A stretch of 64,000 nucleotides of DNA from Trypanosoma brucei (GCA_000002445.1 CP000068.1:640001-704000), one strand, 5' to 3'. Shown: positions 48,137-64,000, counted from the stretch's first letter. Notes: a model not told the origin generated them from the letters alone. Numbers and translations are program-made.

Positions 48137-48213
48137 CGCTGGCTCTTGGCTTCCCCCGATGATACGGGGTACTGGACCCTGGCACCACGTGGAGGTGGCC
48201 GGCATCGCCAGGG
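48137..48213 (-). promoter_or_regulatory. Pr77-like 5' hallmark of L1Tc/ingi elements (internal promoter / HDV-like ribozyme region in the literature)
   Basis: Reverse complement begins CCCTGGCGATGCCGGCCACCTCC...GTACCCCGTATCATCGGGGGAAGCCAAGAGCCAG, the conserved first 77 nt of L1Tc/NARTc/ingi. Confidence 0.7.
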
Positions 48214-48227
48214 GCATTGTGAGAATT
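48214..48227. repeat. Target-site duplication (right copy) of the L1Tc insertion
   Basis: gcattgtgagaatt immediately after ...ggcatcgccaggg (reverse complement of CCCTGGCGATGCC). Confidence 0.75.
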
Positions 48228-48610
48228 AATCCCACGCCACCACCCCTTGCTTGGAATGCGTCTCTTCAGGGTCCCTCGGCACGTTTTTTTTTTGTGGCGC
48301 CCCATTCCGTCGCGTTACTCAGTAAGTGGTGATATAACTGTAGTCACTTCAGATGCTTCCATGTAGCTGCGCGTTTTTCTTCGGTACTTTTTGGTTGGCA
48401 CGCTTATCTTCTGCCTGTTTCACTGCACTGCGAGAATCTGCGTGCTTTGTTGTAATTTTTGTACGCCACCCTCTGTCAATGCGATTGTTCCTAAAGTGTG
48501 GAGAGGCTTCGTTGCACGTGTGTCGTGCGAACGCTCAGTGCAACCACGCGCCTGAAAAGTCTTTCATGCTTCTAGACTTTGGTGATCCTATGCAGGGGGT
48601 TTGCTCCAGT

Positions 48611-48639
48611 TCTGCTTCCGTATTATTATTATTATTATT
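48611..48639. repeat. (TTA)n microsatellite
   Basis: gtattattattattattattatga. Confidence 0.85.
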
Positions 48640-50538
48640 ATGATCATTTGTTATGCCCTCTCTTTTGAATGTCGTTTCTTCATCATCTTGTCCTCGTTTC
48701 CTCGTTGCTCACAGTGTCTGCGGGCAGTTTCTGTCGACTCAAACGGCTACGTTGGAACTGACGTGCGTTCCGCACGCATTTAAGGTTCATGTAAGTCATT
48801 GGCACTTGTGCCATAGTCTCCTTCTCGTCGGTGAGGAAATTGAATGCTGTGCCCGTCTAGTGTGGCAGCCGTAGGGGGGCCCTGTTGTGACGTCGTATGT
48901 TGTTTACAACTGCTCTTTATGAGCCGCAACTGGAGTTCTTGAACCTCCGAGGGCTTGTGCGCTGTGGTGGCGACATAAAGAGGAGACCAAATTTCGCTCG
49001 GGGTTCAGTGTAGTTACCGTGTTCCAATGTAGCATCTCTGCTTGCGAATGGGGGAAAAGAACATGCGCCTCGTTTTCTCTCTCGCTCCGCACTAAAGCAT
49101 GAGGTGCTCTGACACCGGTGCCGTGCTATCCCTCTGTGCTTCTGCTTCCCTGAGCTATGCCCAGCTGCCTTTCCGTCTCGAGTTTTGGCACTGAAGCAGA
49201 CTTTCGCAAACCCTACAGCGTGCATGGCTTCCGCGCACCCATGCATAGCTATGCATTTTCTAGGGCTAGCGTTTCACTGTTCCTAGCTTGTCACCCCAAC
49301 TCCTTTTCCAGGGTCTAAACTAGGACGCGGGCGCGTGTTTGTTTTGATTTATGTGAGTGTTCGGGAGTGTCTGACGGAGGTTGCGTTGACGCGACGTGAC
49401 ATACTCCAAGTCAATGCTTTCAGGTTTTGATTCCCATTATTATCTAACCATGGAACCCGGGGAGGGAGGGGGGGGGGGCGTTTTGTCCCGCAACGATCGT
49501 GGAGCGGTAAAAAGCAAGGCGCTGCCATGGCGCCGCTGCGGGAGTGCGCCGTTGCGCGCTGTCTGGCACGCTCGTGGTGAATAGCGCGCGCTCATGAGCG
49601 CGTGAGGCCTTCTATTGTTCCGGCACCCCGCTACGCTGATACCAGCTGAATTCAGGGTTAGGAGCACCCATCAGCATGTCAAATGCTGCGGCGAGGTGGT
49701 GGGGAAAGTCTCTCCAGTTGGGGCTCCATCAGTTACAAGCTACCCGCTTACAGCGGCTGACTCCGTATAGAAAATTATCACTGCGTTTCCGCGCCGCGTT
49801 GGAAGCGTTGCCAACAGACATGGAGACGTCAAGTCTCTCCCAGATTCAGACAAAAAATCGAAAAAAAGAACAGCCAGGCTAAAAAAAAAAAAATTGGCAC
49901 ATTAATAGATAGGAGATAGGAGATAAATGCTGTCAACAATACACTCCATGTTAAACATTTCCTTCTCCACCCAGAAGAGGTGGGTAAAATACCAACGTTG
50001 CCCCTAACGACCCTATATGGGGGTGGCACCAACCGTGCAGTTGAAACCAATATCAACTTGATGGGAAGAGCCTTCCCTGAAATCGATATCTTAAAGAGTA
50101 AAAGGCTGTCGAGGCCGTACACGAGACTTACCAACGCAGCTAGTGTTGTCTCGTTTTATTCCGTGTCTCCCATCAATGCGAGATGTTCACATATGACATT
50201 CGATGCCACACTATTGACCGGTGGACGGTGCGAGATTGCATCACCACAGCCCTTCCCTCAATAAGTACACCAAGTCCAATACAAACAAGATAATGAAGCA
50301 CACCTTGCCTTTCCACATCACGGCCGATAGCGTTTGGTACCCAGTTTTCTTTCGATATAGCGAATTAAAGAAAGTAGCACCATCGTTGACCAGCACAAAA
50401 CGATCAGGAAGTTACAAAGACAGAATCAACTAAACAGCCCAAAAACGACAAAGTTCCTTATTTTCACATACAGCACAACCCAAAGAAAAGCACCCCTACT
50501 ACGTTTCCAGGAGCAGCAGAGGTTTGTTGCCGCCTACC

Positions 50539-51210
50539 GCTGTCAAAAGCATTCCATGTTATAATTTGTTTGCCGCGCTTGGTCTCGTGATGCTGAGTGA
50601 TTGTGCCTGTGTTTGTGGTTTCACCCCCTCTTGTCACGCCTTCCGCGGTTGGTGTGATTCCATTTGTGTTTGTTTCATGTGTTTTGTTTCCCTCACTACA
50701 TTGTGTGGTGAGGTTTGCTACTCTTATGATGAGTGCGCCTTGTGCCGCGTGCGTGTGTAGTGCTCATTTACCACTTGCTGCTTTCCCTTAACCTATTTCT
50801 GGATGAAAGAGACTTTACTCTTGTTTTTACCCACGTTCAAGCCGACACGGATAACAATGGCCACCTGCCCTAAACACCTGTTCGGGAAGTACCATCTAAA
50901 GAGTTTTAATGGCAAAAGCGCCTTGGAGGGCGAACTGGCCGGTGTGACACTGGAGCTTGGTGAAGAAGACGGTCGTGTCACAGTACGCGCGAAGGCGGGA
51001 AATGCGATGAGTGGTGTGTTGAAGTATGAAGGTGGGATGCTCACCGGTCCCTTGATGTCTACAATGATGATGCCTCCCCCTGCTGTCTTGAAAGTAGAAC
51101 GAACCCTCGTGTCCGGTTTTTCCAGCGGTATGCATGCGCTCCGTGAAGGCTCTTCTCTTACGCTTTCGCATAAGACAGACACGATGGTGTTTGAGGCCGT
51201 GGAGTAAACT
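50539..51210 (+). repeat. Truncated, diverged leading copy of the tandem-array unit (5' flank plus small-protein gene only)
   Basis: Alignable with 52026-52687, 56208-56869 and 60390-61051 from aagcattccatgttataatttgtttgccgcgcttggtctcgtgatgctgag through the stop of the small ORF. Flanks differ on both sides. Confidence 0.85.
50803..51207 (+). CDS. Small single-domain protein, diverged paralogue (array copy 0); candidate FABP/calycin-like beta-barrel domain
   Basis: Probable start at second Met (50857): MATCPKHLFGKYHLKSFNGKSALEGELAGV. About 116 aa from that Met. Differs from copies 1-3 in the C-terminal third (MSTMMMPPPAVLKVERTLVSGF vs ISTIMLSPPALMEVESAFSSGF). Confidence 0.6.
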   Translation: MKETLLLFLPTFKPTRITMATCPKHLFGKYHLKSFNGKSALEGELAGVTLELGEEDGRVTVRAKAGNAMSGVLKYEGGMLTGPLMSTMMMPPPAVLKVERTLVSGFSSGMHALREGSSLTLSHKTDTMVFEAVE

Positions 51211-52039
51211 TGTTTCTCGACATGCAGTTACCCTTTTATTTTCTACTTGTGTTGCCACTACACTTTCGTGTTTGTGGTCGGTGTTAGCGAACACTACCTT
51301 TGTTTACCACTTAGTGTTATGTTATTTATTTTTGAAATCGGGTTATTATTTTTATTTTTTTTTTCCAGGGTGTAGATATTTGAACCCTAATAAACGTCAA
51401 CGTTTTGTTAATTTATACGGGGGTACGTGTTTTTTTATTTGTTATCGAGGTATAGGCCTTCTGTCATGGTGACTACTGGACATTTTCGCTTCCTCTTTGC
51501 TGGATGCTCCCTGAATACTCAACGTAATAGTATGAAGAAAAGTGAGATGGTAGGCGGGGAATAAGTGTATGTAAGGAGTATATATTGTACGGACATCGGT
51601 AGTGGTGATGATGTTGAGATTCTCTCTCTTAAAGGTTATATCTTTGTATCAACTGATTCGGTACATAAGATCAGATTTTAAATACTATCTTCTATTTATT
51701 ATTTATTATGGAGTGTGATAATTAAAATGTAAGGGCAAATTATCTAACTGCTTATGATCAGTTGATTAGGTAGCGAGTAGTTTAGATAGTATCTTATATT
51801 TAGGAGGTGAGGTGTCCATCTGTAGTAATGGAAGAAATTGTTTGTAAGGATCGACGGCAGTGCAGATAAAACAAATATCGAAGTATATATATATGTATAG
51901 AAGTTTGGCTCAGCGACAGAGATACAATATTCTGCAAAAATAAGATATAAATATTTCATCATTACCCTACCATGCACAGATTATCGATGTGTATCCAACA
52001 AGGTGGGCGCGTGCGACTCCTTCAAGCATTCCATGTTAT

Positions 52040-52279
52040 AATTTGTTTGCCGCGCTTGGTCTCGTGATGCTGAGCGATTGTGCCTGTGTTTGTGGTTTCA
52101 CCCCCTCTTGTCACGCCTTCCGCGGTTGGTGTGATTCCATTTGTGTTTGTTTCATGTGTTTTGTTTCCCTCACTACATTGTGTGGTGAGGTTTGCTACTC
52201 TTATGATGAGTGCGCCTTGTGCCGCGTGCGTGTGTAGTGCTCATTTACCACTTGCTGCTTTCCCTTAACCTATTTCTGG
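52040..52279 (+). promoter_or_regulatory. GT/pyrimidine-rich upstream region of the small-protein gene (putative polypyrimidine tract / trans-splice acceptor zone)
   Basis: tgtgtttgtggtttcaccccctcttgtcacgccttccgcggttggtgtgattccatttgtgtttgtttcatgtgttttgtttccctcac directly upstream of the ORF in every unit. Trypanosomatid trans-splicing needs such tracts (established). The site itself is not mapped. Confidence 0.3.
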
Positions 52280-52684
52280 ATGAAAGAGACTTTACTCTTG
52301 TTTTTACCCACGTTCAAGCCGACACGGATAACAATGGCCACCTGCCCTAAACACCTGTTCGGGAAGTACCATCTAAAGAGTTTTAATGGCAAAAGCGCCT
52401 TGGAGGGCGAACTGGCCGGTGTGACACTGGAGCTTGGTGAAGAAGACGGTCGTGTCACAGTACGCGCGAAGGCGGGAAATGCGATGAATGGTGTGTTGAA
52501 GTATGAAGGTGGGATGCTCACCGGTCCCTTGATATCCACTATTATGCTCTCGCCCCCTGCTTTGATGGAGGTGGAGAGTGCTTTCAGTTCTGGATTTTCC
52601 AGCGGTATGCATGCGCTCCGTGAAGGCTCTTCTCTTACGCTTTCGCATAAGACAGACACGATGGTGTTTGAGGCCGTGGAGTAA
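52280..52684 (+). CDS. Small single-domain protein (array copy 1); candidate FABP/calycin-like domain
   Basis: Same gene as 56462..56866 with two aa differences (K/E, P/V). Probable start at MATCPKH (52334). Confidence 0.6.
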   Translation: MKETLLLFLPTFKPTRITMATCPKHLFGKYHLKSFNGKSALEGELAGVTLELGEEDGRVTVRAKAGNAMNGVLKYEGGMLTGPLISTIMLSPPALMEVESAFSSGFSSGMHALREGSSLTLSHKTDTMVFEAVE

Positions 52685-53110
52685 AGGTGACGGGCATACG
52701 TTAGTGTGTGTTTTGTTTATACGGTGATGTAAAAAATGACTTAAATTTTCATCTGTTTTTCGGTTATATTGTAGGTGCATATTCAACTTTCTCAATACCT
52801 AATGGCGGTACTATTAGTATTATTTTTTTTAAATACTTTCCTTGTTCACGAATATGTGATATCTACTGATTCGTATGAGCACTTTTGTTTTTTTATGCGT
52901 CTTCCTGTCTTCGCTAGCGTTTTGTTGTTGATGTATTTCTTGATTTGCTTTTCGTTTCTTTCTTTATGCTCTATACCTTTTTTTGCCTTTCCCTTGTATC
53001 CGCATATTCTCGTCCTCTGGTCTCTACTCCGCCATATTTATTCATGTAGTGCATGTAGTACTGGTTTGCATCCCGTGGAAACCTCTGCTTTTGTGTAGCA
53101 CCCGCGATTT

Positions 53111-54541
53111 ATGGCATCAGACAATGAGTCCACTGTCGAGGTGAGGGAGGCTCGTGACACCGAGGAGTACGATGCGCAGGCTGCTGCTCGTGGGCTGTGT
53201 GACAAGGCATGTGACATAAAGAGCCTTCTACATGGGCACGTTGAGTCGACGCGTGCCCTCGAAAGGGTTGTTGGGGAATTTTGCACTCGCGACATCGCTG
53301 AAGAGGATGCCTTCCGGAAAATCTCTCTCGACGTTATGCATGCCGAAATGCGGGCGCTACGGGACCTTCACTACGTTGCATTTTCCCAGCGGTGGGCAGA
53401 GGTAGAAAAGGGCTCCGCTGCAGAGGAGGTCACCAGCCTACCTTCAGCGGATAGGAGTGTTGGAAGTTGCGTGTCCCACCTTCTGACCTCGCTTTGTGAG
53501 GGAAAGCCTGATGCAACTTTTAGCCTTTCAGAGTATTTTGGTGTCGCTGACGTGCTTATGGAATGGCGCTCGTTAACTCCAGCATCACAGGAACAGTTGG
53601 ATATTCTTCTTCTGTCAATAACCAGGAGCGTGGAGGACATTTCATCATGTGTCCTGCTGCTGAATGGGGTTTTATATACACCATCTGATTCATTTGATTG
53701 TTGTGAACTCACTCGACGGGAGCTCACCGCGATAATTGGAAGTGGGGGACCCGCTTCCGCGGAAGAGGCACTTGTTGGATGGCTTAATTTTATTGTGAGA
53801 CGCTCGTTACTCAACCAGACCCTTCTCCAGAGGCTGATGAGTTCGACCATCGAGTTTCGGAGAAGTGATCTTTGCCTACAGGGCGACGGCGCAGACGTGC
53901 TGGTTGTAGTCGACCACAGGCGGTTGTTGAACTCCGCTGTCTTTCGTGGGTTTTTCTTTTCTGGGGAGTTGCGTGGTGTAGAGGCTATTGGGGCGCAGGT
54001 GAACTTGATGTCAGTATTATTTGCAGGCAACGGCAGCGGAGATCAGCTTGACATAGAGAAGTGTATCGCCGACATTTTCCGCGCTTTATGGGAGCAGCAG
54101 GAACTGCTTTCATGTAAGTGGAAGAACGTTACTGTGACCCTCGCTGTTCAAGCCAGGAAGGACGTCGGAGCCGGCGCTCAAACCAAGTTGATGGACTTCG
54201 TTGTGCTCGATCTTCGCCCCCTGTCGCCGAACATTCCTTTTCAGTGGCACTTTACATGGGGCGAGGTCTGTGCACTAGGCCAGCTCAGTACGAATGACGG
54301 AGATAGAGCACGACCCCTGGACATTCCTGTTTTCAAGACGACTCGTGTAGCTGTAGCCTCTCTGGGGCCTTATGATAAACTTTCACGCATAATGTTCCCT
54401 TCGATTAACGAGTATTTACGTCTTACGCGGAAAGAGCCACCATCTGTAGCCCCAGTCGCCTACGCTGCCGTCGCGGCGGCGCTTGTCGTCGGGGGATTTA
54501 TTGTTGGAAGCTGCATACTCGGTTCCCGGCGAAGACGATGA
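53111..54541 (+). CDS. 476-aa protein with single C-terminal transmembrane segment (tail-anchored-like), array copy 1
   Basis: No N-terminal signal peptide (MASDNESTVEVREARDTEEYD). Single hydrophobic segment AYAAVAAALVVGGFIVGSCILG, 5 residues from the end, followed by SRRRR-stop. Repeated at +4182 and +8364 with one substitution (T/A). Confidence 0.7.
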   Translation: MASDNESTVEVREARDTEEYDAQAAARGLCDKACDIKSLLHGHVESTRALERVVGEFCTRDIAEEDAFRKISLDVMHAEMRALRDLHYVAFSQRWAEVEKGSAAEEVTSLPSADRSVGSCVSHLLTSLCEGKPDATFSLSEYFGVADVLMEWRSLTPASQEQLDILLLSITRSVEDISSCVLLLNGVLYTPSDSFDCCELTRRELTAIIGSGGPASAEEALVGWLNFIVRRSLLNQTLLQRLMSSTIEFRRSDLCLQGDGADVLVVVDHRRLLNSAVFRGFFFSGELRGVEAIGAQVNLMSVLFAGNGSGDQLDIEKCIADIFRALWEQQELLSCKWKNVTVTLAVQARKDVGAGAQTKLMDFVVLDLRPLSPNIPFQWHFTWGEVCALGQLSTNDGDRARPLDIPVFKTTRVAVASLGPYDKLSRIMFPSINEYLRLTRKEPPSVAPVAYAAVAAALVVGGFIVGSCILGSRRRR

Positions 54542-54789
54542 GCAGTATCCGCCTCTGCTTTTTTCTGTTCATCTTGTTTTATTGACTTTAGAGCCATATT
54601 TAGGCTCCGCTATGCGTCCTTGTTGGTTAGAGGTTTAGTATTGTTGTACCTGACTCTGTGACTGATGGTGGGTGCCGCACCGTATCTGCGGCATGGGGTG
54701 CTTGCGTGAGTGAGGATCCACACTTATTTGACCGCTGTTTGCTATGAAATGTTTCCCTCCTTTCCTACTTGTAGCCAAGTTAATATTGC

Positions 54790-56130
54790 ATGATGGATAT
54801 TACTGCGTTGTGCGGAAACTATCGGTTGTGTGAGATTGACGGAAAGACGTGCTCCGAGGAAGTGTTTATTGCTCTAGAGGCGTCTGGTGGTGGTGTTGAG
54901 GTTGTTGCCATGGTGGGCAACACCCTGTGCGGGCGCGCTTGTGTGAATGGGGACAGGATTAGTGCGAACCTTACTAGCACTATGAGGCAGGTGGAAGAAG
55001 AGATGATGAGGATTGAAAGCCTGCTGACATGCGGGTTCAAGGCCGGGTTTACCTGTGAGCAGAGTGACATCATACTGACGCTGACTGGAGAGCAGAGTGT
55101 CTTCACATTGGAGCGTGATGTATTATGTGATATAAAGTTTGGTGAGTATACCCTCTGTGAGTTCAATGGGGAACCCGTGGCTTCGGACGAGATGGTGCTC
55201 ACCCTGCTCCCCGCTGTGGTAGATGGTGCCCTTGTGATTGCACAGTTCAAAAACTCTCTCCGCGGGGAGCTGGAGCTTCGCAATGGTCGTCTCCGCGGCG
55301 TTATTGCGTCGACGATGTGCGAGGTGGATGGTTCTTTGAAGTGCGCGGAGGAAGCGTTTTTGTCAGCTACCAGGGGTGATGGCATAAAAGTGTGCTCTGA
55401 CGACCACCGGCTTGTGCTTAAGGACGACCACAATGCGTTCGTTTATGTGCTGCGTCCAGCAATTCCAGAGAACCTTGTGAGCGAGTACTTACTGAAGAGC
55501 TTCAATGGCGAGTCTGTAGAGGCTGAGAGGCGTGTGATGTTCCGCTTTTCCCAATCAGCTGACGGTGTCGGTACGGATGTTGTGGCGAGTGTTGCCAATA
55601 CGATCAGGGGGAAGGTAAGAGTGGATGACGGAAAGTTAAAATCGAAGGTGATGTCATCACGAAGGAAAGGGAATGAGTCGGAGATGCGATTTGAGAATGC
55701 TCTGAAGGAAGGGTTCAAGGCTGGGTTTTCGTGGTCTCTGGACGACACGGTGCTGACTCTTGAGTGCGACGGGAACCGCCTCATCTTCGTGAAAGTTGCC
55801 GCTGTGCCGTGCGAAAATGGTAGGCCGGGGTATATTGGTGATAAGGTTTCAAGATGCTTTAAGGCCCACGACGATGCTCGAGTGTACCGTATCATCAACA
55901 CTGTGGAATCGAAGTGGGCATTTTACAATGACACGACCGAATACAATTTTAATGTGTCAGTGACTTTTGGGCGGAAATCAAAGGTACGCGGTCTGGCCAA
56001 CACGTCAATTGAGACAAATGAGGAAGGCTTGACGGTTGCCAGCGTGTCAGTCGCCCCTGGTGCGACGGAGATGTTCGTTGCTGGGGATGTAAACGGGTAC
56101 AAGTGCTCCTATGACGCAGTGCACCAGTAG
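54790..56130 (+). CDS. 446-aa multi-domain protein built from 3-4 repeats of the small-protein domain, array copy 1
   Basis: Internal repeats of about 110 aa, each beginning with a small-protein-like motif: residues 1- MMDITALCGNYRLCEIDGKTCSEEV, 118- GEYTLCEFNGEPVASDEMV, 231- SEYLLKSFNGESVEAERRV. GFKAGF recurs in repeats 1 and 3. Confidence 0.7.
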   Translation: MMDITALCGNYRLCEIDGKTCSEEVFIALEASGGGVEVVAMVGNTLCGRACVNGDRISANLTSTMRQVEEEMMRIESLLTCGFKAGFTCEQSDIILTLTGEQSVFTLERDVLCDIKFGEYTLCEFNGEPVASDEMVLTLLPAVVDGALVIAQFKNSLRGELELRNGRLRGVIASTMCEVDGSLKCAEEAFLSATRGDGIKVCSDDHRLVLKDDHNAFVYVLRPAIPENLVSEYLLKSFNGESVEAERRVMFRFSQSADGVGTDVVASVANTIRGKVRVDDGKLKSKVMSSRRKGNESEMRFENALKEGFKAGFSWSLDDTVLTLECDGNRLIFVKVAAVPCENGRPGYIGDKVSRCFKAHDDARVYRIINTVESKWAFYNDTTEYNFNVSVTFGRKSKVRGLANTSIETNEEGLTVASVSVAPGATEMFVAGDVNGYKCSYDAVHQ

Positions 56131-56461
56131 CCGACATTGCGTTGAGTGTTGATCCGGATGTAAGATACACATATGTATGCGGAGGTGGGCGCGTGCGACT
56201 CCTTCAAGCATTCCATGTTATAATTTGTTTGCCGCGCTTGGTCTCGTGATGCTGAGCGATTGTGCCTGTGTTTGTGGTTTCACCCCCTCTTGTCACGCCT
56301 TCCGCGGTTGGTGTGATTCCATTTGTGTTTGTTTCATGTGTTTTGTTTCCCTCACTACATTGTGTGGTGAGGTTTGCTACTCTTATGATGAGTGCGCCTT
56401 GTGCCGCGTGCGTGTGTAGTGCTCATTTACCACTTGCTGCTTTCCCTTAACCTATTTCTGG

Positions 56462-56866
56462 ATGAAAGAGACTTTACTCTTGTTTTTACCCACGTTCAAG
56501 CCGACACGGATAACAATGGCCACCTGCCCTAAACACCTGTTCGGGAAGTACCATCTAGAGAGTTTTAATGGCAAAAGCGCCTTGGAGGGCGAACTGGCCG
56601 GTGTGACACTGGAGCTTGGTGAAGAAGACGGTCGTGTCACAGTACGCGCGAAGGCGGGAAATGCGATGAATGGTGTGTTGAAGTATGAAGGTGGGATGCT
56701 CACCGGCGTCTTGATATCCACTATTATGCTCTCGCCCCCTGCTTTGATGGAGGTGGAGAGTGCTTTCAGTTCTGGATTTTCCAGCGGTATGCATGCGCTC
56801 CGTGAAGGCTCTTCTCTTACGCTTTCGCATAAGACAGACACGATGGTGTTTGAGGCCGTGGAGTAA
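56462..56866 (+). CDS. Small single-domain protein (array copy 2)
   Basis: Identical to copy 3. Confidence 0.6.
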   Translation: MKETLLLFLPTFKPTRITMATCPKHLFGKYHLESFNGKSALEGELAGVTLELGEEDGRVTVRAKAGNAMNGVLKYEGGMLTGVLISTIMLSPPALMEVESAFSSGFSSGMHALREGSSLTLSHKTDTMVFEAVE

Positions 56867-57292
56867 AGGTGACGGGCATACGTTAGTGTGTGTTTTGTTT
56901 ATACGGTGATGTAAAAAATGACTTAAATTTTCATCTGTTTTTCGGTAATATTGTAGGTGCATATTCAACTCTTTGAATTTCTAATGGCGGTACTATTAGT
57001 ATTATTTTTTTTAAATACTTTCCTTGTTCACGAATATGTGATATCTACTGATTCGTATGAGCACTTTTGTTTTTTTATGCGTCTTCCTGTCTTCGCTAGC
57101 GTTTTGTTGTTGATGTATTTCTTGATTTGCTTTTCGTTTCTTTCTTTATGCTCTATACCTTTTTTTGCCTTTCCCTTGTATCCGCATATTCTCGTCCTCT
57201 GGTCTCTACTCCGCCATATTTATTCATGTAGTGCATGTAGTACTGGTTTGCATCCCGTGGAAACCTCTGCTTTTGTGTAGCACCCGCGATTT

Positions 57293-58723
57293 ATGGCATC
57301 AGACAATGAGTCCACTGTCGAGGTGAGGGAGGCTCGTGACACCGAGGAGTACGATGCGCAGGCTGCTGCTCGTGGGCTGTGTGACAAGGCATGTGACATA
57401 AAGAGCCTTCTACATGGGCACGTTGAGTCGACGCGTGCCCTCGAAAGGGTTGTTGGGGAATTTTGCACTCGCGACATCGCTGAAGAGGATGCCTTCCGGA
57501 AAATCTCTCTCGACGTTATGCATGCCGAAATGCGGGCGCTACGGGACCTTCACTACGTTGCATTTTCCCAGCGGTGGGCAGAGGTAGAAAAGGGCTCCGC
57601 TGCAGAGGAGGTCACCAGCCTACCTTCAGCGGATAGGAGTGTTGGAAGTTGCGTGTCCCACCTTCTGGCCTCGCTTTGTGAGGGAAAGCCTGATGCAACT
57701 TTTAGCCTTTCAGAGTATTTTGGTGTCGCTGACGTGCTTATGGAATGGCGCTCGTTAACTCCAGCATCACAGGAACAGTTGGATATTCTTCTTCTGTCAA
57801 TAACCAGGAGCGTGGAGGACATTTCATCATGTGTCCTGCTGCTGAATGGGGTTTTATATACACCATCTGATTCATTTGATTGTTGTGAACTCACTCGACG
57901 GGAGCTCACCGCGATAATTGGAAGTGGGGGACCCGCTTCCGCGGAAGAGGCACTTGTTGGATGGCTTAATTTTATTGTGAGACGCTCGTTACTCAACCAG
58001 ACCCTTCTCCAGAGGCTGATGAGTTCGACCATCGAGTTTCGGAGAAGTGATCTTTGCCTACAGGGCGACGGCGCAGACGTGCTGGTTGTAGTCGACCACA
58101 GGCGGTTGTTGAACTCCGCTGTCTTTCGTGGGTTTTTCTTTTCTGGGGAGTTGCGTGGTGTAGAGGCTATTGGGGCGCAGGTGAACTTGATGTCAGTATT
58201 ATTTGCAGGCAACGGCAGCGGAGATCAGCTTGACATAGAGAAGTGTATCGCCGACATTTTCCGCGCTTTATGGGAGCAGCAGGAACTGCTTTCATGTAAG
58301 TGGAAGAACGTTACTGTGACCCTCGCTGTTCAAGCCAGGAAGGACGTCGGAGCCGGCGCTCAAACCAAGTTGATGGACTTCGTTGTGCTCGATCTTCGCC
58401 CCCTGTCGCCGAACATTCCTTTTCAGTGGCACTTTACATGGGGCGAGGTCTGTGCACTAGGCCAGCTCAGTACGAATGACGGAGATAGAGCACGACCCCT
58501 GGACATTCCTGTTTTCAAGACGACTCGTGTAGCTGTAGCCTCTCTGGGGCCTTATGATAAACTTTCACGCATAATGTTCCCTTCGATTAACGAGTATTTA
58601 CGTCTTACGCGGAAAGAGCCACCATCTGTAGCCCCAGTCGCCTACGCTGCCGTCGCGGCGGCGCTTGTCGTCGGGGGATTTATTGTTGGAAGCTGCATAC
58701 TCGGTTCCCGGCGAAGACGATGA
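57293..58723 (+). CDS. 476-aa tail-anchored-like membrane protein, array copy 2
   Basis: Identical to copy 3. One aa differs from copy 1. Confidence 0.7.
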   Translation: MASDNESTVEVREARDTEEYDAQAAARGLCDKACDIKSLLHGHVESTRALERVVGEFCTRDIAEEDAFRKISLDVMHAEMRALRDLHYVAFSQRWAEVEKGSAAEEVTSLPSADRSVGSCVSHLLASLCEGKPDATFSLSEYFGVADVLMEWRSLTPASQEQLDILLLSITRSVEDISSCVLLLNGVLYTPSDSFDCCELTRRELTAIIGSGGPASAEEALVGWLNFIVRRSLLNQTLLQRLMSSTIEFRRSDLCLQGDGADVLVVVDHRRLLNSAVFRGFFFSGELRGVEAIGAQVNLMSVLFAGNGSGDQLDIEKCIADIFRALWEQQELLSCKWKNVTVTLAVQARKDVGAGAQTKLMDFVVLDLRPLSPNIPFQWHFTWGEVCALGQLSTNDGDRARPLDIPVFKTTRVAVASLGPYDKLSRIMFPSINEYLRLTRKEPPSVAPVAYAAVAAALVVGGFIVGSCILGSRRRR

Positions 58724-58971
58724 GCAGTATCCGCCTCTGCTTTTTTCTGTTCATCTTGTTTTATTGACTTTAGAGCCATATTTAGGCTCCGCTATGCGTC
58801 CTTGTTGGTTAGAGGTTTAGTATTGTTGTACCTGACTCTGTGACTGATGGTGGGTGCCGCACCGTATCTGCGGCATGGGGTGCTTGCGTGAGTGAGGATC
58901 CACACTTATTTGACCGCTGTTTGCTATGAAATGTTTCCCTCCTTTCCTACTTGTAGCCAAGTTAATATTGC

Positions 58972-60312
58972 ATGATGGATATTACTGCGTTGTGCGGAAA
59001 CTATCGGTTGTGTGAGATTGACGGAAAGACGTGCTCCGAGGAAGTGTTTATTGCTCTAGAGGCGTCTGGTGGTGGTGTTGAGGTTGTTGCCATGGTGGGC
59101 AACACCCTGTGCGGGCGCGCTTGTGTGAATGGGGACAGGATTAGTGCGAACCTTACTAGCACTATGAGGCAGGTGGAAGAAGAGATGATGAGGATTGAAA
59201 GCCTGCTGACATGCGGGTTCAAGGCCGGGTTTACCTGTGAGCAGAGTGACATCATACTGACGCTGACTGGAGAGCAGAGTGTCTTCACATTGGAGCGTGA
59301 TGTATTATGTGATATAAAGTTTGGTGAGTATACCCTCTGTGAGTTCAATGGGGAACCCGTGGCTTCGGACGAGATGGTGCTCACCCTGCTCCCCGCTGTG
59401 GTAGATGGTGCCCTTGTGATTGCACAGTTCAAAAACTCTCTCCGCGGGGAGCTGGAGCTTCGCAATGGTCGTCTCCGCGGCGTTATTGCGTCGACGATGT
59501 GCGAGGTGGATGGTTCTTTGAAGTGCGCGGAGGAAGCGTTTTTGTCAGCTACCAGGGGTGATGGCATAAAAGTGTGCTCTGACGACCACCGGCTTGTGCT
59601 TAAGGACGACCACAATGCGTTCGTTTATGTGCTGCGTCCAGCAATTCCAGAGAACCTTGTGAGCGAGTACTTACTGAAGAGCTTCAATGGCGAGTCTGTA
59701 GAGGCTGAGAGGCGTGTGATGTTCCGCTTTTCCCAATCAGCTGACGGTGTCGGTACGGATGTTGTGGCGAGTGTTGCCAATACGATCAGGGGGAAGGTAA
59801 GAGTGGATGACGGAAAGTTAAAATCGAAGGTGATGTCATCACGAAGGAAAGGGAATGAGTCGGAGATGCGATTTGAGAATGCTCTGAAGGAAGGGTTCAA
59901 GGCTGGGTTTTCGTGGTCTCTGGACGACACGGTGCTGACTCTTGAGTGCGACGGGAACCGCCTCATCTTCGTGAAAGTTGCCGCTGTGCCGTGCGAAAAT
60001 GGTAGGCCGGGGTATATTGGTGATAAGGTTTCAAGATGCTTTAAGGCCCACGACGATGCTCGAGTGTACCGTATCATCAACACTGTGGAATCGAAGTGGG
60101 CATTTTACAATGACACGACCGAATACAATTTTAATGTGTCAGTGACTTTTGGGCGGAAATCAAAGGTACGCGGTCTGGCCAACACGTCAATTGAGACAAA
60201 TGAGGAAGGCTTGACGGTTGCCAGCGTGTCAGTCGCCCCTGGTGCGACGGAGATGTTCGTTGCTGGGGATGTAAACGGGTACAAGTGCTCCTATGACGCA
60301 GTGCACCAGTAG
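58972..60312 (+). CDS. 446-aa multi-domain protein, array copy 2
   Basis: Identical translation to copy 1. Confidence 0.7.
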   Translation: MMDITALCGNYRLCEIDGKTCSEEVFIALEASGGGVEVVAMVGNTLCGRACVNGDRISANLTSTMRQVEEEMMRIESLLTCGFKAGFTCEQSDIILTLTGEQSVFTLERDVLCDIKFGEYTLCEFNGEPVASDEMVLTLLPAVVDGALVIAQFKNSLRGELELRNGRLRGVIASTMCEVDGSLKCAEEAFLSATRGDGIKVCSDDHRLVLKDDHNAFVYVLRPAIPENLVSEYLLKSFNGESVEAERRVMFRFSQSADGVGTDVVASVANTIRGKVRVDDGKLKSKVMSSRRKGNESEMRFENALKEGFKAGFSWSLDDTVLTLECDGNRLIFVKVAAVPCENGRPGYIGDKVSRCFKAHDDARVYRIINTVESKWAFYNDTTEYNFNVSVTFGRKSKVRGLANTSIETNEEGLTVASVSVAPGATEMFVAGDVNGYKCSYDAVHQ

Positions 60313-60643
60313 CCGACATTGCGTTGAGTGTTGATCCGGATGTAAGATACACATATGTATGCGGAGGTGGGCGCGTGCGACTCCTTCAAGCATTCCATGT
60401 TATAATTTGTTTGCCGCGCTTGGTCTCGTGATGCTGAGCGATTGTGCCTGTGTTTGTGGTTTCACCCCCTCTTGTCACGCCTTCCGCGGTTGGTGTGATT
60501 CCATTTGTGTTTGTTTCATGTGTTTTGTTTCCCTCACTACATTGTGTGGTGAGGTTTGCTACTCTTATGATGAGTGCGCCTTGTGCCGCGTGCGTGTGTA
60601 GTGCTCATTTACCACTTGCTGCTTTCCCTTAACCTATTTCTGG

Positions 60644-61048
60644 ATGAAAGAGACTTTACTCTTGTTTTTACCCACGTTCAAGCCGACACGGATAACAATG
60701 GCCACCTGCCCTAAACACCTGTTCGGGAAGTACCATCTAGAGAGTTTTAATGGCAAAAGCGCCTTGGAGGGCGAACTGGCCGGTGTGACACTGGAGCTTG
60801 GTGAAGAAGACGGTCGTGTCACAGTACGCGCGAAGGCGGGAAATGCGATGAATGGTGTGTTGAAGTATGAAGGTGGGATGCTCACCGGCGTCTTGATATC
60901 CACTATTATGCTCTCGCCCCCTGCTTTGATGGAGGTGGAGAGTGCTTTCAGTTCTGGATTTTCCAGCGGTATGCATGCGCTCCGTGAAGGCTCTTCTCTT
61001 ACGCTTTCGCATAAGACAGACACGATGGTGTTTGAGGCCGTGGAGTAA
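60644..61048 (+). CDS. Small single-domain protein (array copy 3)
   Basis: Identical to copy 2. Confidence 0.6.
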   Translation: MKETLLLFLPTFKPTRITMATCPKHLFGKYHLESFNGKSALEGELAGVTLELGEEDGRVTVRAKAGNAMNGVLKYEGGMLTGVLISTIMLSPPALMEVESAFSSGFSSGMHALREGSSLTLSHKTDTMVFEAVE

Positions 61049-61474
61049 AGGTGACGGGCATACGTTAGTGTGTGTTTTGTTTATACGGTGATGTAAAAAA
61101 TGACTTAAATTTTCATCTGTTTTTCGGTAATATTGTAGGTGCATATTCAACTCTTTGAATTTCTAATGGCGGTACTATTAGTATTATTTTTTTTAAATAC
61201 TTTCCTTGTTCACGAATATGTGATATCTACTGATTCGTATGAGCACTTTTGTTTTTTTATGCGTCTTCCTGTCTTCGCTAGCGTTTTGTTGTTGATGTAT
61301 TTCTTGATTTGCTTTTCGTTTCTTTCTTTATGCTCTATACCTTTTTTTGCCTTTCCCTTGTATCCGCATATTCTCGTCCTCTGGTCTCTACTCCGCCATA
61401 TTTATTCATGTAGTGCATGTAGTACTGGTTTGCATCCCGTGGAAACCTCTGCTTTTGTGTAGCACCCGCGATTT

Positions 61475-62905
61475 ATGGCATCAGACAATGAGTCCACTGT
61501 CGAGGTGAGGGAGGCTCGTGACACCGAGGAGTACGATGCGCAGGCTGCTGCTCGTGGGCTGTGTGACAAGGCATGTGACATAAAGAGCCTTCTACATGGG
61601 CACGTTGAGTCGACGCGTGCCCTCGAAAGGGTTGTTGGGGAATTTTGCACTCGCGACATCGCTGAAGAGGATGCCTTCCGGAAAATCTCTCTCGACGTTA
61701 TGCATGCCGAAATGCGGGCGCTACGGGACCTTCACTACGTTGCATTTTCCCAGCGGTGGGCAGAGGTAGAAAAGGGCTCCGCTGCAGAGGAGGTCACCAG
61801 CCTACCTTCAGCGGATAGGAGTGTTGGAAGTTGCGTGTCCCACCTTCTGGCCTCGCTTTGTGAGGGAAAGCCTGATGCAACTTTTAGCCTTTCAGAGTAT
61901 TTTGGTGTCGCTGACGTGCTTATGGAATGGCGCTCGTTAACTCCAGCATCACAGGAACAGTTGGATATTCTTCTTCTGTCAATAACCAGGAGCGTGGAGG
62001 ACATTTCATCATGTGTCCTGCTGCTGAATGGGGTTTTATATACACCATCTGATTCATTTGATTGTTGTGAACTCACTCGACGGGAGCTCACCGCGATAAT
62101 TGGAAGTGGGGGACCCGCTTCCGCGGAAGAGGCACTTGTTGGATGGCTTAATTTTATTGTGAGACGCTCGTTACTCAACCAGACCCTTCTCCAGAGGCTG
62201 ATGAGTTCGACCATCGAGTTTCGGAGAAGTGATCTTTGCCTACAGGGCGACGGCGCAGACGTGCTGGTTGTAGTCGACCACAGGCGGTTGTTGAACTCCG
62301 CTGTCTTTCGTGGGTTTTTCTTTTCTGGGGAGTTGCGTGGTGTAGAGGCTATTGGGGCGCAGGTGAACTTGATGTCAGTATTATTTGCAGGCAACGGCAG
62401 CGGAGATCAGCTTGACATAGAGAAGTGTATCGCCGACATTTTCCGCGCTTTATGGGAGCAGCAGGAACTGCTTTCATGTAAGTGGAAGAACGTTACTGTG
62501 ACCCTCGCTGTTCAAGCCAGGAAGGACGTCGGAGCCGGCGCTCAAACCAAGTTGATGGACTTCGTTGTGCTCGATCTTCGCCCCCTGTCGCCGAACATTC
62601 CTTTTCAGTGGCACTTTACATGGGGCGAGGTCTGTGCACTAGGCCAGCTCAGTACGAATGACGGAGATAGAGCACGACCCCTGGACATTCCTGTTTTCAA
62701 GACGACTCGTGTAGCTGTAGCCTCTCTGGGGCCTTATGATAAACTTTCACGCATAATGTTCCCTTCGATTAACGAGTATTTACGTCTTACGCGGAAAGAG
62801 CCACCATCTGTAGCCCCAGTCGCCTACGCTGCCGTCGCGGCGGCGCTTGTCGTCGGGGGATTTATTGTTGGAAGCTGCATACTCGGTTCCCGGCGAAGAC
62901 GATGA
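61475..62905 (+). CDS. 476-aa tail-anchored-like membrane protein, array copy 3
   Basis: Identical to copy 2. Confidence 0.7.
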   Translation: MASDNESTVEVREARDTEEYDAQAAARGLCDKACDIKSLLHGHVESTRALERVVGEFCTRDIAEEDAFRKISLDVMHAEMRALRDLHYVAFSQRWAEVEKGSAAEEVTSLPSADRSVGSCVSHLLASLCEGKPDATFSLSEYFGVADVLMEWRSLTPASQEQLDILLLSITRSVEDISSCVLLLNGVLYTPSDSFDCCELTRRELTAIIGSGGPASAEEALVGWLNFIVRRSLLNQTLLQRLMSSTIEFRRSDLCLQGDGADVLVVVDHRRLLNSAVFRGFFFSGELRGVEAIGAQVNLMSVLFAGNGSGDQLDIEKCIADIFRALWEQQELLSCKWKNVTVTLAVQARKDVGAGAQTKLMDFVVLDLRPLSPNIPFQWHFTWGEVCALGQLSTNDGDRARPLDIPVFKTTRVAVASLGPYDKLSRIMFPSINEYLRLTRKEPPSVAPVAYAAVAAALVVGGFIVGSCILGSRRRR

Positions 62906-63153
62906 GCAGTATCCGCCTCTGCTTTTTTCTGTTCATCTTGTTTTATTGACTTTAGAGCCATATTTAGGCTCCGCTATGCGTCCTTGTTGGTTAGAGGTTT
63001 AGTATTGTTGTACCTGACTCTGTGACTGATGGTGGGTGCCGCACCGTATCTGCGGCATGGGGTGCTTGCGTGAGTGAGGATCCACACTTATTTGACCGCT
63101 GTTTGCTATGAAATGTTTCCCTCCTTTCCTACTTGTAGCCAAGTTAATATTGC

Positions 63154-64000
63154 ATGATGGATATTACTGCGTTGTGCGGAAACTATCGGTTGTGTGAGAT
63201 TGACGGAAAGACGTGCTCCGAGGAAGTGTTTATTGCTCTAGAGGCGTCTGGTGGTGGTGTTGAGGTTGTTGCCATGGTGGGCAACACCCTGTGCGGGCGC
63301 GCTTGTGTGAATGGGGACAGGATTAGTGCGAACCTTACTAGCACTATGAGGCAGGTGGAAGAAGAGATGATGAGGATTGAAAGCCTGCTGACATGCGGGT
63401 TCAAGGCCGGGTTTACCTGTGAGCAGAGTGACATCATACTGACGCTGACTGGAGAGCAGAGTGTCTTCACATTGGAGCGTGATGTATTATGTGATATAAA
63501 GTTTGGTGAGTATACCCTCTGTGAGTTCAATGGGGAACCCGTGGCTTCGGACGAGATGGTGCTCACCCTGCTCCCCGCTGTGGTAGATGGTGCCCTTGTG
63601 ATTGCACAGTTCAAAAACTCTCTCCGCGGGGAGCTGGAGCTTCGCAATGGTCGTCTCCGCGGCGTTATTGCGTCGACGATGTGCGAGGTGGATGGTTCTT
63701 TGAAGTGCGCGGAGGAAGCGTTTTTGTCAGCTACCAGGGGTGATGGCATAAAAGTGTGCTCTGACGACCACCGGCTTGTGCTTAAGGACGACCACAATGC
63801 GTTCGTTTATGTGCTGCGTCCAGCAATTCCAGAGAACCTTGTGAGCGAGTACTTACTGAAGAGCTTCAATGGCGAGTCTGTAGAGGCTGAGAGGCGTGTG
63901 ATGTTCCGCTTTTCCCAATCAGCTGACGGTGTCGGTACGGATGTTGTGGCGAGTGTTGCCAATACGATCAGGGGGAAGGTAAGAGTGGATGACGGAAAGT
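63154..64000 (+). CDS. 446-aa multi-domain protein, array copy 3 (3'-truncated by window end)
   Basis: ATG at 63154 = 58972 + 4182. Translation identical as far as the window extends. Confidence 0.65.
   Translation, partial: MMDITALCGNYRLCEIDGKTCSEEVFIALEASGGGVEVVAMVGNTLCGRACVNGDRISANLTSTMRQVEEEMMRIESLLTCGFKAGFTCEQSDIILTLTGEQSVFTLERDVLCDIKFGEYTLCEFNGEPVASDEMVLTLLPAVVDGALVIAQFKNSLRGELELRNGRLRGVIASTMCEVDGSLKCAEEAFLSATRGDGIKVCSDDHRLVLKDDHNAFVYVLRPAIPENLVSEYLLKSFNGESVEAERRVMFRFSQSADGVGTDVVASVANTIRGKVRVDDGK

What the first reader, a model, noticed from the sequence alone, without database searches (positions are those of the whole stretch)
50539..64000. 4,182-bp tandem array of a three-gene cassette (small domain protein + tail-anchored 476-aa protein + multi-domain 446-aa protein)
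Three complete or partial head-to-tail units at an exact 4,182-bp period follow a truncated leading copy. Each unit carries the same three ORFs on the plus strand, and units 2 and 3 are identical at the protein level. The array starts at the edge of a strand-switch region and runs off the window, so true copy number is unknown and may be collapsed in assembly. None of the three products matches a family I can name from memory. Dosage-amplified cassettes in trypanosomatids usually encode abundant structural or surface proteins, so this is a candidate uncharacterised abundant protein system.
Basis: seen in the sequence. Interest (0 to 1): 0.85.

Follow-up and report, generated by a model that had tools for sequence, protein, structure and literature searches.

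The report
Trypanosoma brucei META gene tandem array
The repeat is real, but it is the already annotated and published META1/META2 gene cluster of Trypanosoma brucei chromosome 5, amplified to three copies; the only new point is that its unnamed middle gene encodes a membrane-anchored protein folded like the translation-factor assembly protein Cdc123.

Summary
An exact 4,182-bp head-to-tail repeat runs from 52001 to the window end, preceded by a partial leading copy at 50547-51207. Units 2 and 3 are identical at DNA level.

The window is T. brucei brucei TREU927 chromosome 5, not T. cruzi, and the genes are Tb927.5.2160-2260. The small protein is a META-domain protein, the META1 homologue. The 446-aa protein has three META domains plus DUF1935, the META2 architecture. 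Toh 2021, Kabani 2009, Ling 2011 and Jensen 2009 already describe these genes, including very high procyclic-form mRNA.

The locus is syntenic with the Leishmania major chromosome 17 META cluster. The cassette is single-copy in T. theileri and amplified in T. brucei and T. vivax. The likely cause is unequal crossing-over between flanking META1 copies, which raises dosage at the head of a polycistronic unit.

The parts
48306..50546 (.). Divergent strand-switch / intergenic region between the minus-strand retroposon and the first plus-strand META1 gene. It contains a G-run at about 49459-49479. It is the presumed RNA polymerase II transcription start zone.
   Evidence: ORF orientation and the sequence. 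PMC7952579 states that the META genes lie at the beginning of a polycistronic unit. No tRNA or Rfam hit was found.
50547..51207 (+). Leading partial copy: the META1 5' flank plus the META1 CDS (Tb927.5.2160). The longest ORF is 50803-51207. The 116-aa CDS is 50857-51207.
   Evidence: Shift-1477 identity to 52024-52684. Pfam META E 1.3e-14. Exact match to AAZ11331/XP_844890. It is 88-90% identical to the unit copies, with a divergent patch.
51208..52000 (+). Unique AT-rich 3' flank of the leading META1. Its first ~360 nt are homologous to the 3' flank of the trailing META1 in T. b. gambiense.
   Evidence: No period-4182 or shift-1477 identity here. L005 13096-14108 aligns to window 50547-51566 at 96.7%.
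52001..56182 (+). Repeat unit 1 (4,182 bp): Tb927.5.2170, Tb927.5.2180 and Tb927.5.2190.
   Evidence: It has 11 mismatches to unit 2.
56183..60364 (+). Repeat unit 2 (4,182 bp): Tb927.5.2200, Tb927.5.2210 and Tb927.5.2220.
   Evidence: It is identical to unit 3 over all comparable bases.
60365..64000 (+). Repeat unit 3, cut by the window end inside the third META2 gene: Tb927.5.2230, Tb927.5.2240 and part of Tb927.5.2250.
   Evidence: The GenBank protein order AAZ11331-11341 shows three full units followed by a trailing META1.
52334..52684 (+). META1-like CDS of unit 1 (116 aa from Met19 of the 134-aa ORF): a single META domain. The equivalent CDSs are 56516-56866 and 60698-61048.
   Evidence: Pfam PF03724, 57.4 bits against a cut-off of 24. 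The 116-aa length is given in PMC7952579. Alignment.
53111..54541 (+). Middle gene 'X' of unit 1 (476 aa, Tb927.5.2180). It has an N-terminal long helical region (aa 22-103), a Cdc123-like ATP-grasp-fold core (about aa 120-440) and a C-terminal transmembrane anchor (aa 452-470) followed by RRRR. The equivalent CDSs are 57293-58723 and 61475-62905.
54790..56130 (+). META2-like CDS of unit 1 (446 aa, Tb927.5.2190): three META domains (about aa 1-112, 113-224 and 225-336) plus a C-terminal DUF1935 / calpain-type domain (aa 342-444). The equivalent CDSs are 58972-60312 and 63154-64000 (cut).
   Evidence: Pfam META, 95.1 bits in 3 stretches, and DUF1935, 117.4 bits. PDB 2fe0 (Leishmania SMP-1), E 1e-23. 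Internal repeat alignment.

Best explanation
This is the META locus of Trypanosoma brucei brucei TREU927 chromosome 5 (Tb927.5.2160-2260). It is the orthologue of the Leishmania chromosome 17 'META cluster'.

The ancestral single cassette was META1 - X - META2 - META1, followed by an LRR protein gene. That arrangement survives in T. theileri. In T. brucei it has expanded to three 4,182-bp head-to-tail units. The expansion most likely arose by unequal homologous recombination between the two flanking META1 copies (inferred). Gene conversion keeps the units almost identical (inferred from 0-11 differences per 4.2 kb).

The array is the first thing transcribed from a divergent strand-switch region. 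Trypanosomes have no gene-specific RNA polymerase II promoters, so copy number acts as a dosage device. Stage-specific levels are then set post-transcriptionally. This is shown in the literature: the mRNAs are procyclic-enriched, META1 mRNA depends on ZC3H20, and the META genes fall on ZC3H45 knock-down and in metacyclics.

The three products are:
- META1, a single HslJ/META-domain protein.
- META2, with three META domains plus a DUF1935 calpain-type domain.
- X, a tail-anchored protein whose core has a Cdc123-like ATP-grasp fold with most catalytic residues replaced. It is therefore more likely a binding or assembly factor at a membrane than a ligase (inferred).
For: **Identity**
- All window proteins match T. 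brucei TREU927 GenBank entries AAZ11331-AAZ11340 exactly, on a 1,608,198-bp contig. The cluster also holds a further TREU927 META1 entry, AAZ11341, taken as the trailing copy beyond the window end.

**Families**
- Pfam META and DUF1935 hits lie far above their gathering cut-offs. PDB SMP-1 matches at E 1e-23.

**Literature**
- PMC7952579 lists the gene IDs, states the position at the start of a polycistronic unit, notes synteny with Leishmania meta-1, and reports down-regulation in ZC3H45 RNAi and in purified metacyclics.
- PMC2753553 calls Tb927.5.2160 a homologue of Leishmania Meta1 that is induced on differentiation to procyclics.
- PMC3121479 reports that 2160, 2170 and 2260 (META1) fall 7-10-fold on ZC3H20 RNAi.
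- PMC2771046 ranks Tb927.5.2260 10th by expression and states that gene amplification is a strategy for raising expression in T. brucei.

**Synteny**
- L. major chromosome 17: META2(444) - X(561) - META1(112) - LRR - acyltransferase - SNRNP200.
- Novymonas has a similar order.
- T. theileri has a single cassette with the same flanks, DBR1/UPF1 upstream and LRR/acyltransferase downstream.
- T. vivax has at least 3 complete units plus a partial one.
- T. b. gambiense has the same locus with one unit.

**Concerted evolution**
- META1 copies are 88-100% identical within a species and 41-51% identical between Trypanosoma species. The two flanking copies in T. theileri are 92% identical.

**Protein X**
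Against: - The copy number of three rests on one Sanger-era assembly. Units 2 and 3 are 100% identical, so they could not be told apart by sequence.
- The DAL972 assembly shows only one unit.
- The unequal-crossover origin and the dosage rationale are inferences. No read-depth or expression data were analysed here.
- The gene order around X differs between Trypanosoma (META1-X-META2) and Leishmaniinae (META2-X-META1). Orthology of the individual META genes is therefore by architecture and neighbourhood, not strict collinearity.
- T. brucei expression is procyclic-enriched and low in metacyclics. This is the opposite of the metacyclic up-regulation that named the Leishmania genes.
- The Cdc123 relationship of X rests on a predicted structure and a weak profile match (hhalign probability 14.6%). 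Neither Pfam D123 nor a PDB sequence search detects it.
Confidence: 0.9

Rival explanations
1. The three genes form a co-functioning module, the 'abundant protein system' the first reader proposed. On this reading the membrane-anchored Cdc123-like protein X works together with the META-domain proteins, for example by anchoring or assembling them at a membrane near the flagellar pocket. The cassette would then be amplified as a functional unit.
For: - META1, X and META2 are adjacent in Trypanosoma, Novymonas and Leishmania.
- They are co-amplified in T. brucei and T. vivax.
- Members of all three gene sets (2190, 2220, 2230, 2240, 2250) fall together in ZC3H45 RNAi.
- Leishmania META1 localises around the flagellar pocket (PMC3270026).
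Against: - Gene order in trypanosomatid polycistronic units is broadly conserved regardless of function. Here the unrelated flanking genes (DBR1, UPF1, LRR, acyltransferase, SNRNP200) are just as syntenic.
- Co-amplification follows automatically from recombination between META1 copies that bracket X and META2.
- Only META1 is documented as very abundant.
- No interaction data were found. A search for Tb927.5.2180/2210/2240 returned only the RNAi table.
Confidence: 0.2
2. The array is an assembly artefact. On this reading there is one cassette, as in the T. b. gambiense DAL972 assembly, and the identical units were duplicated during assembly.
For: - Units 2 and 3 have zero differences over 3,685 comparable bases.
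- The DAL972 assembly has a single unit.
Against: - Unit 1 differs from unit 2 at 11 positions, including three amino-acid changes. At least two distinct copies therefore exist.
- The T. equiperdum OVI contig closes on itself with exactly the 4,182-bp period. This requires a real META2-to-META1 tandem junction in independent data.
- The related T. vivax assembly has at least 3 complete units.
- Short assemblies collapse repeats far more often than they invent them.
Confidence: 0.03
3. X is not related to Cdc123. On this reading the fold match is an AlphaFold or fold-search coincidence, and X is a kinetoplastid-specific membrane protein of a new fold family.
For: - No sequence-level hit was found to Pfam D123, to any ATP-grasp family or to PDB sequences.
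- The hhalign probability is only 14.6%.
- There is no similarity to the T. brucei CDC123 family member Tb11.01.0660.
- The canonical catalytic residues are mostly absent.
Against: - The match was already top with the shallow first model.
- The hhalign alignment is collinear over 178 columns and pairs the conserved motifs: FRGFFF with EFRCFV, VLDxRP with LIDFNP, FTWxE with FTWEE, and VFKxT with AFRCT. It outscores all 31 reversed or shuffled controls.
Confidence: 0.12

Closest known systems
Leishmania META cluster (META1, META2, LRR17) on chromosome 17
   Same: - It has the same gene set and the same flanking genes. In L. major the order is META2 (444 aa; META plus DUF1935) - X orthologue (561 aa) - META1 (112 aa) - LRR protein - acyltransferase - SNRNP200-like helicase, downstream of a strand switch.
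[quoted passage not shown]
   Different: - Each gene is single-copy in L. major, against three tandem units plus extra leading and trailing META1 copies in T. brucei.
- META1 and META2 sit on opposite sides of X in the two lineages.
- The Leishmania genes are up-regulated in metacyclic promastigotes. The T. brucei genes are procyclic-enriched and low in metacyclics.
Bacterial HslJ / META-domain proteins (Pfam PF03724)
   Same: The ~110-residue META domain is shared. META1 and each of the three META2 repeats match the Pfam model. PMC3270026 argues that META1, HslJ and the secretin pilot MxiM share a fold, and that META1 was acquired by lateral transfer.
   Different: The trypanosomatid proteins are cytosolic or flagellar-pocket associated and lack lipoprotein signals. 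In META2 the domain is triplicated and fused to DUF1935.
Cdc123 / D123 (R2K clade ATP-grasp; eIF2 assembly factor)
   Same: - A collinear profile alignment covers the protein-kinase-like half. It pairs the invariant Arg of the ExR strand (R279 with human R179), D367 with D246, and the FTWxE and C-terminal FK/R-x-T motifs.
   Different: - X is not detected by Pfam D123.
- X carries an extra N-terminal ~80-residue helical region and a C-terminal transmembrane anchor.
- Catalytic positions are replaced: N248 becomes R369, D233 becomes T343, and the K104 region is hydrophobic.
- T. brucei has a separate CDC123 family member, Tb11.01.0660, which shows no similarity to X.
Other dosage-type tandem arrays in T. 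brucei (tubulin, histones, PAD array)
   Same: They show head-to-tail amplification of near-identical units inside a polycistronic unit. PMC2771046 shows that multicopy genes are skewed toward high expression.
   Different: The unit here holds three unrelated genes rather than one or two, and copy number is low (3).

Membership tests
META domain family (Pfam PF03724; Leishmania META1 homologues) | Sequence match to the META domain model above Pfam's gathering score. | tested here: met
   Small protein: 57.4 bits (unit copy) and 54.6 bits (leading copy) against a cut-off of 24. The 446-aa protein: 95.1 bits in 3 stretches.
META domain family (Pfam PF03724; Leishmania META1 homologues) | Positional orthology with Leishmania META1 (the same neighbourhood). 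| tested here: met
   L. major chromosome 17, Novymonas, T. theileri, T. vivax and T. b. gambiense all carry META1, X, META2, an LRR gene and an acyltransferase next to the same strand switch.
META domain family (Pfam PF03724; Leishmania META1 homologues) | Up-regulation in metacyclic (infective insect-stage) forms, the property that named the genes. | not testable with these tools
   Literature only. T. brucei transcripts are procyclic-enriched (PMC2753553; PMC2771046). They are down-regulated in purified metacyclics (PMC7952579). On published data this feature is not shared.
META2 architecture | Three META domains followed by a C-terminal calpain-like (DUF1935) domain in a ~445-aa protein. 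| tested here: met
   Three META stretches plus DUF1935 at aa 342-444 (E 4e-34) in 446 aa. Internal repeats are 24-32% identical. PDB SMP-1 2fe0 matches at E 1e-23. The published description is in PMC3270026.
Tandem gene array | Head-to-tail copies at a constant period, with the junction confirmed independently. | tested here: met
   The period is exactly 4,182 bp, with 0-11 mismatches per unit. The T. equiperdum contig is 4,195 bp, which is 4,182 plus a 13-bp overlap.
Tail-anchored membrane protein | A single hydrophobic segment at the extreme C-terminus and no N-terminal signal peptide. | tested here: met
   The maximum Kyte-Doolittle 19-mer score is 2.41 at aa 452-470 of 476, followed by RRRR. 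The N-terminus is hydrophilic. The same layout occurs in about 28 of 35 family members. This is a hydropathy analysis only. No dedicated predictor or experiment was used.
Cdc123 / D123 (R2K ATP-grasp clade) | ATP-grasp fold closest to Cdc123. | tested here: met
   [not shown]
Cdc123 / D123 (R2K ATP-grasp clade) | Sequence match to the family model (Pfam PF07065) or to Cdc123 sequences. | tested here: not met
   None of the 35 family members hits D123 at E up to 1. The family profile against PDB sequences gives nothing. Only hhalign gives a signal: P 0.0018, probability 14.6%. That score is above all 31 shuffled controls.
Cdc123 / D123 (R2K ATP-grasp clade) | Catalytic constellation: Lys in RAGNYA strand 2 (human K104) plus a second K/R, Asp D233, the D246-x-N248 motif, and Arg of ExR (PMC4431377). 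| tested here: not met
   - R279 (human R179) is invariant, 35 of 35.
- D367 (human D246) is kept in 29 of 35.
- The N248 position is R369 (R in 22, H in 5, never N).
- The D233 position is T343 or a hydrophobic residue.
- The E177 position is V or L.
- The K104 region, 'VLLLNG', is hydrophobic. This alignment was made by eye, because the region lies outside the hhalign range.

Sources.
Cdc123 / D123 (R2K ATP-grasp clade) | Binds eIF2-gamma domain III and promotes eIF2 assembly. | not testable with these tools
   No interaction data exist. T. brucei has a separate CDC123-family gene, Tb11.01.0660, in the Burroughs alignment, and it is unrelated in sequence to X. X is therefore described as 'Cdc123-like fold' and not filed as Cdc123.

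The most novel reading that the evidence does not exclude
The unnamed middle gene (Tb927.5.2180/2210/2240 and its orthologues, including the gene between META2 and META1 on L. major chromosome 17) would found an undescribed, trypanosomatid-wide lineage of tail-anchored Cdc123-like ATP-grasp proteins with a remodelled active site. Its ancient linkage and co-amplification with the META-domain genes would reflect a shared function. One example would be a membrane-bound assembly or anchoring factor for META proteins, or for a translation GTPase, near the flagellar pocket.
Probability: 0.12. Interest if true: 0.6.

Novelty: already known. Interest (0 to 1): 0.27.

Why it matters
The array itself adds little, because it is annotated and has been discussed in several T. 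brucei expression studies. It remains a clean example of how trypanosomes raise dosage. Flanking paralogues (META1) seed unequal crossing-over, and the bracketed genes are carried along.

Two points may be useful to specialists.

1. The 'hypothetical conserved' gene inside the META cluster of every trypanosomatid examined is predicted to be a tail-anchored Cdc123-like protein. This gives a concrete, testable handle on a gene that sits between two long-studied virulence-associated genes in Leishmania.
2. Copy number differs between assemblies: 3, 1, collapsed, and at least 3 complete units in T. vivax. Expression and knock-out studies of META genes must therefore allow for multi-copy, near-identical targets.

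Tried and rejected
- **RNA genes in the window:** an Rfam gathering scan and a tRNA scan of the whole window found nothing, so no RNA gene explains the strand-switch region.
- **Sequence-only identification of the 476-aa protein failed.** Pfam on the protein gave nothing. Pfam on all 35 family members gave nothing. The family profile against PDB sequences gave only chance hits, to IgG and surfactant protein B.
- **Word-index homologue search:** it found only Trypanosoma orthologues. The exhaustive profile search was needed to reach Leishmaniinae and more distant relatives.
- **First AF2 model:** the 8-sequence alignment gave a mediocre model (pLDDT 62.8). It was replaced by a 35-sequence model (pLDDT 83.1).
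- **X as a recent duplicate of the T. brucei CDC123 gene Tb11.01.0660:** rejected. BLASTP and hhalign show no similarity.
- **afdb50 fold search:** the library was unavailable.
- **Ramos et al. 2004 (the META cluster paper):** not held in the library. The Leishmania locus was read directly instead.
- **Literature search for CDC123 together with Trypanosoma brucei:** returned nothing.
- **PMC8269394:** this paper cites Tb927.5.2190 as TbSTi1. I judged that a probable accession typo and did not use it.
- **Logan contig joining X to a PARP_regulatory-domain gene:** treated as a probable chimera.

Full report
**1. Observation**

A direct-repeat search and a base-by-base self-comparison show an exact 4,182-bp period from 52001 to the end of the window.
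- Unit 1 is 52001-56182, unit 2 is 56183-60364, and unit 3 is 60365-64000, cut by the window end.
- Unit 1 differs from unit 2 at only 11 positions. These cluster in the first 800 nt, with one more at 53486.
- Units 2 and 3 are identical at every comparable base.
- A leading partial copy at 50547-51207 matches 52024-52684 at a shift of 1,477 nt and contains only the small ORF. It is followed by about 800 nt of unique AT-rich sequence.
- Each unit carries three plus-strand ORFs of 134, 476 and 446 aa.
- Every ORF of 220 aa or more upstream of 47.4 kb is on the minus strand. The array therefore begins at a divergent strand switch.

**2. Source of the window**

All six ORF translations tested (four distinct protein sequences among them recur as the unit copies) are exact matches to GenBank entries of Trypanosoma brucei brucei TREU927, on a 1,608,198-bp contig, which is chromosome 5. 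The consecutive accessions AAZ11331-AAZ11341 give the full assembled structure. It runs: leading small gene, three copies of [small, 476 aa, 446 aa], then a trailing small gene.

In current nomenclature these are Tb927.5.2160 to Tb927.5.2260. Toh et al. [quoted passage not shown] They call the locus syntenic with Leishmania meta-1. The organism is therefore T. brucei, not T. cruzi, and the array is annotated and published.

**3. The two META genes**

- The small protein hits Pfam META (PF03724) at 57 bits against a cut-off of 24. Its likely start is Met19, giving the published 116 aa.
- The 446-aa protein has three META stretches (95 bits) plus DUF1935 at aa 342-444 (117 bits). It also matches the solved structure of Leishmania SMP-1 at E 1e-23.
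- Its three internal repeats are 24-32% identical to each other and to the small protein.

**4. Published expression data**

- Kabani et al. 2009 call Tb927.5.2160 a homologue of Leishmania Meta1 and show induction during differentiation to procyclic forms.
- Jensen et al. [quoted passage not shown] They also show that multicopy genes are skewed to high expression.
- Ling et al. 2011 find that 2160, 2170 and 2260 (META1) drop 7-10-fold on ZC3H20 RNAi.
- Toh et al. 2021 find that 2190, 2220, 2230, 2240 and 2250 are down in ZC3H45 RNAi, and that both families are down in purified metacyclics.

The stage specificity is the opposite of the Leishmania genes, which are metacyclic-enriched.

**5. Comparative anatomy**

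| Species (locus) | Arrangement downstream of the strand switch |
|---|---|
| T. theileri | META1(105) - X(503) - META2(443) - META1(122) - LRR(467) - acyltransferase; single cassette, with DBR1, UPF1 and a 531-aa gene on the minus strand upstream, as in the window |
| T. vivax | At least three complete [META1, X, META2] units plus a partial one, a trailing META1, then LRR, acyltransferase and an SNRNP200-like helicase |
| T. b. gambiense DAL972 | Leading META1, one unit, trailing META1, then LRR and the same downstream genes |
| Novymonas | META2 - X - META1 - ... - META1 - LRR |
| L. major chromosome 17 | META2(444) - X(561) - META1(112) - LRR(675) - acyltransferase - SNRNP200 |

Further points:
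- The 3' flank of the DAL972 trailing META1 is homologous to the 3' flank of the window's leading copy.
- T. equiperdum OVI has a 4,195-bp contig with a 13-bp terminal overlap. This is one 4,182-bp unit closed on itself, the signature of a collapsed tandem repeat.
- The array is the T. brucei version of the Leishmania META cluster, and X is a constant member of that cluster.
- META1 copies are 88-100% identical within a species but only 41-51% identical between Trypanosoma species. The two flanking copies of T. theileri are 92% identical. This indicates concerted evolution.

**6. Mechanism (inferred)**

Two near-identical META1 copies bracket X and META2 in the unamplified state. Unequal crossing-over between them yields exactly the observed product, [META1-X-META2]n followed by a trailing META1. 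The period equals the META1-to-META1 distance. X and META2 are then co-amplified whether or not they need to be.

Differences are confined to the first unit and the leading copy. This fits homogenisation by gene conversion that is weaker at array edges.

The array sits first after a divergent strand switch, and trypanosomes do not regulate RNA polymerase II initiation gene by gene. Copy number is therefore the available dosage lever. Stage control is post-transcriptional.

I did not measure read depth. The copy number of three rests on the TREU927 assembly.

**7. The middle gene X**

*Family and distribution*
- X has no Pfam family.
- The word-index search found only Trypanosoma orthologues at 44-54% identity, besides the near-identical (99%) T. 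b. gambiense copy.
- An exhaustive profile search found 47 cluster representatives. They include Leishmania spp. (on chromosome 17), Phytomonas and Novymonas, plus unnamed environmental and SRA contigs.
- About 28 of 35 aligned members end in a hydrophobic segment followed by basic residues and lack an N-terminal signal. The tail-anchor call is sound.

*Structure*
- Foldseek against the PDB ranks ten Cdc123 chains, from S. pombe and human, first at E 1.3e-6 to 7.9e-5.

*Sequence support*
- I assembled nine Cdc123 sequences. The human sequence was verified as identical to PDB 8phd_A.
- Profile-profile alignment with these gives a collinear 178-column alignment with P 0.0018 and probability 14.6%.
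- It pairs FRGFFF(278-283) with EFRCFV, VLDLRP(365-370) with LIDFNP, FTWGEV with FTWEEL, and PVFKTT with PAFRCT.
- Its score of 32.8 exceeds all 31 reversed or block-shuffled controls, whose maximum was 28.6 over 27 columns.

*Catalytic residues*

I checked the catalytic features listed by Burroughs et al. 2015: K104, D233, D246xN248 and the ExR arginine.
- The family keeps the Arg (R279, 35 of 35) and mostly keeps D367.
- It has R or H in place of N248.
- It has T or a hydrophobic residue in place of D233.
- It has a hydrophobic stretch where K104 should be.

*Relation to the T. brucei CDC123 gene*

T. brucei has a separate CDC123-family gene, Tb11.01.0660, in the Burroughs alignment. It shows no detectable similarity to X.

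*Conclusion on X*

X has a Cdc123-like ATP-grasp fold and is probably an ancient, divergent relative. It fails the sequence and catalytic-residue tests for membership. It is more likely a membrane-tethered binding or assembly protein than a ligase. I found no paper linking CDC123 and T. brucei and none discussing Tb927.5.2180/2210/2240 beyond an RNAi table.

**8. Verdict**

The feature is real and the description is correct. The headline interpretation, a candidate uncharacterised system with no nameable families, does not hold. Two of the three genes belong to named families, and the array is annotated, published and orthologous to a cluster studied in Leishmania since the 1990s. Novelty of the finding as stated is 'already known'. 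The modest residual interest lies in the structural assignment of the middle gene and in the clear comparative picture of how the array arose.

Noticed in passing
window 43223-48305 (minus strand): An ingi-like non-LTR retroposon lies directly upstream of the strand-switch region. It is broken into at least four ORFs: C2H2 zinc fingers at 43223-44143, RNase H at 44098-45636, reverse transcriptase at 45721-47394 (E 5.6e-46), and an endonuclease fragment at 47461-48066. The same element sits at the same place in T. b. gambiense DAL972, where L005 1-13757 aligns to window 43104-56867 at 97.3%.
   Followed up: partly
window ~49459-49479 and 48621-48641: A G-run (GGGAGGGAGGGGGGGGGGC) and an (ATT)n microsatellite lie inside the divergent strand-switch region. 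No tRNA or Rfam family was found anywhere in the window.
   Followed up: no
L004 (T. equiperdum OVI contig CZPT02001251.1, 4,195 bp): The contig has a 13-bp terminal direct overlap, so it is one 4,182-bp unit closed on itself. The array is collapsed in that assembly, and the period is conserved exactly.
   Followed up: yes
L011 (L. major chr 17), L003 (Novymonas), against L001/L002/window: META1 and META2 lie on opposite sides of X in Leishmaniinae (META2-X-META1) and in Trypanosoma (META1-X-META2-META1). One reading is differential loss from an ancestral array that was already duplicated. I did not test this.
   Followed up: no
L005 13096-14108 against window 50547-51566: The leading META1 copy (Tb927.5.2160) shares its 3' flank with the trailing META1 copy of T. 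b. gambiense (96.7% over 1,021 nt). The unit-internal META1 copies do not share it. The leading and trailing genes probably have the same 3' UTR, which may explain why 2160 and 2260 behave alike in expression studies.
   Followed up: partly
L006 (Logan contig ERR7929157_721, 3,861 bp): Here the X gene is joined, 31 nt upstream of its ATG, to an unrelated 511-aa gene with a PARP_regulatory (cap methyltransferase-like) domain instead of META1. It is probably an assembly chimera or an engineered or rearranged line.
   Followed up: partly
window 1-42000 (minus strand): The upstream polycistronic unit encodes ordinary housekeeping genes: a UPF1-like helicase (34982-37516), lariat debranching enzyme DBR1 (31842-33707), a kinesin (19615-22881), IMPDH/GMP reductase (16344-17819), a Myb-domain protein (10651-12843), a lysine methyltransferase (9181-10290) and a MutL-like protein (1497-4106). 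DBR1 and UPF1 are syntenic in T. theileri.
   Followed up: partly
Literature: PMC7952579 and PMC8269394: Toh et al. describe the 446-aa protein as having two predicted META domains, whereas Pfam and the internal alignment show three. Separately, PMC8269394 gives Tb927.5.2190 as the accession of TbSTi1, which looks like a typo.
   Followed up: no
Burroughs 2015 supplementary alignment, row Tb11.01.0660: The T. brucei CDC123-family gene is itself very divergent. Only its N-terminal half aligns to human CDC123 by BLASTP (E 2e-5). In that alignment it has 'GVVLCG' at the position of the K104 strand. Protein X preserves the C-terminal FTWxE and FK/R-x-T motifs of opisthokont Cdc123 better than Tb11.01.0660 does.
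   Followed up: partly
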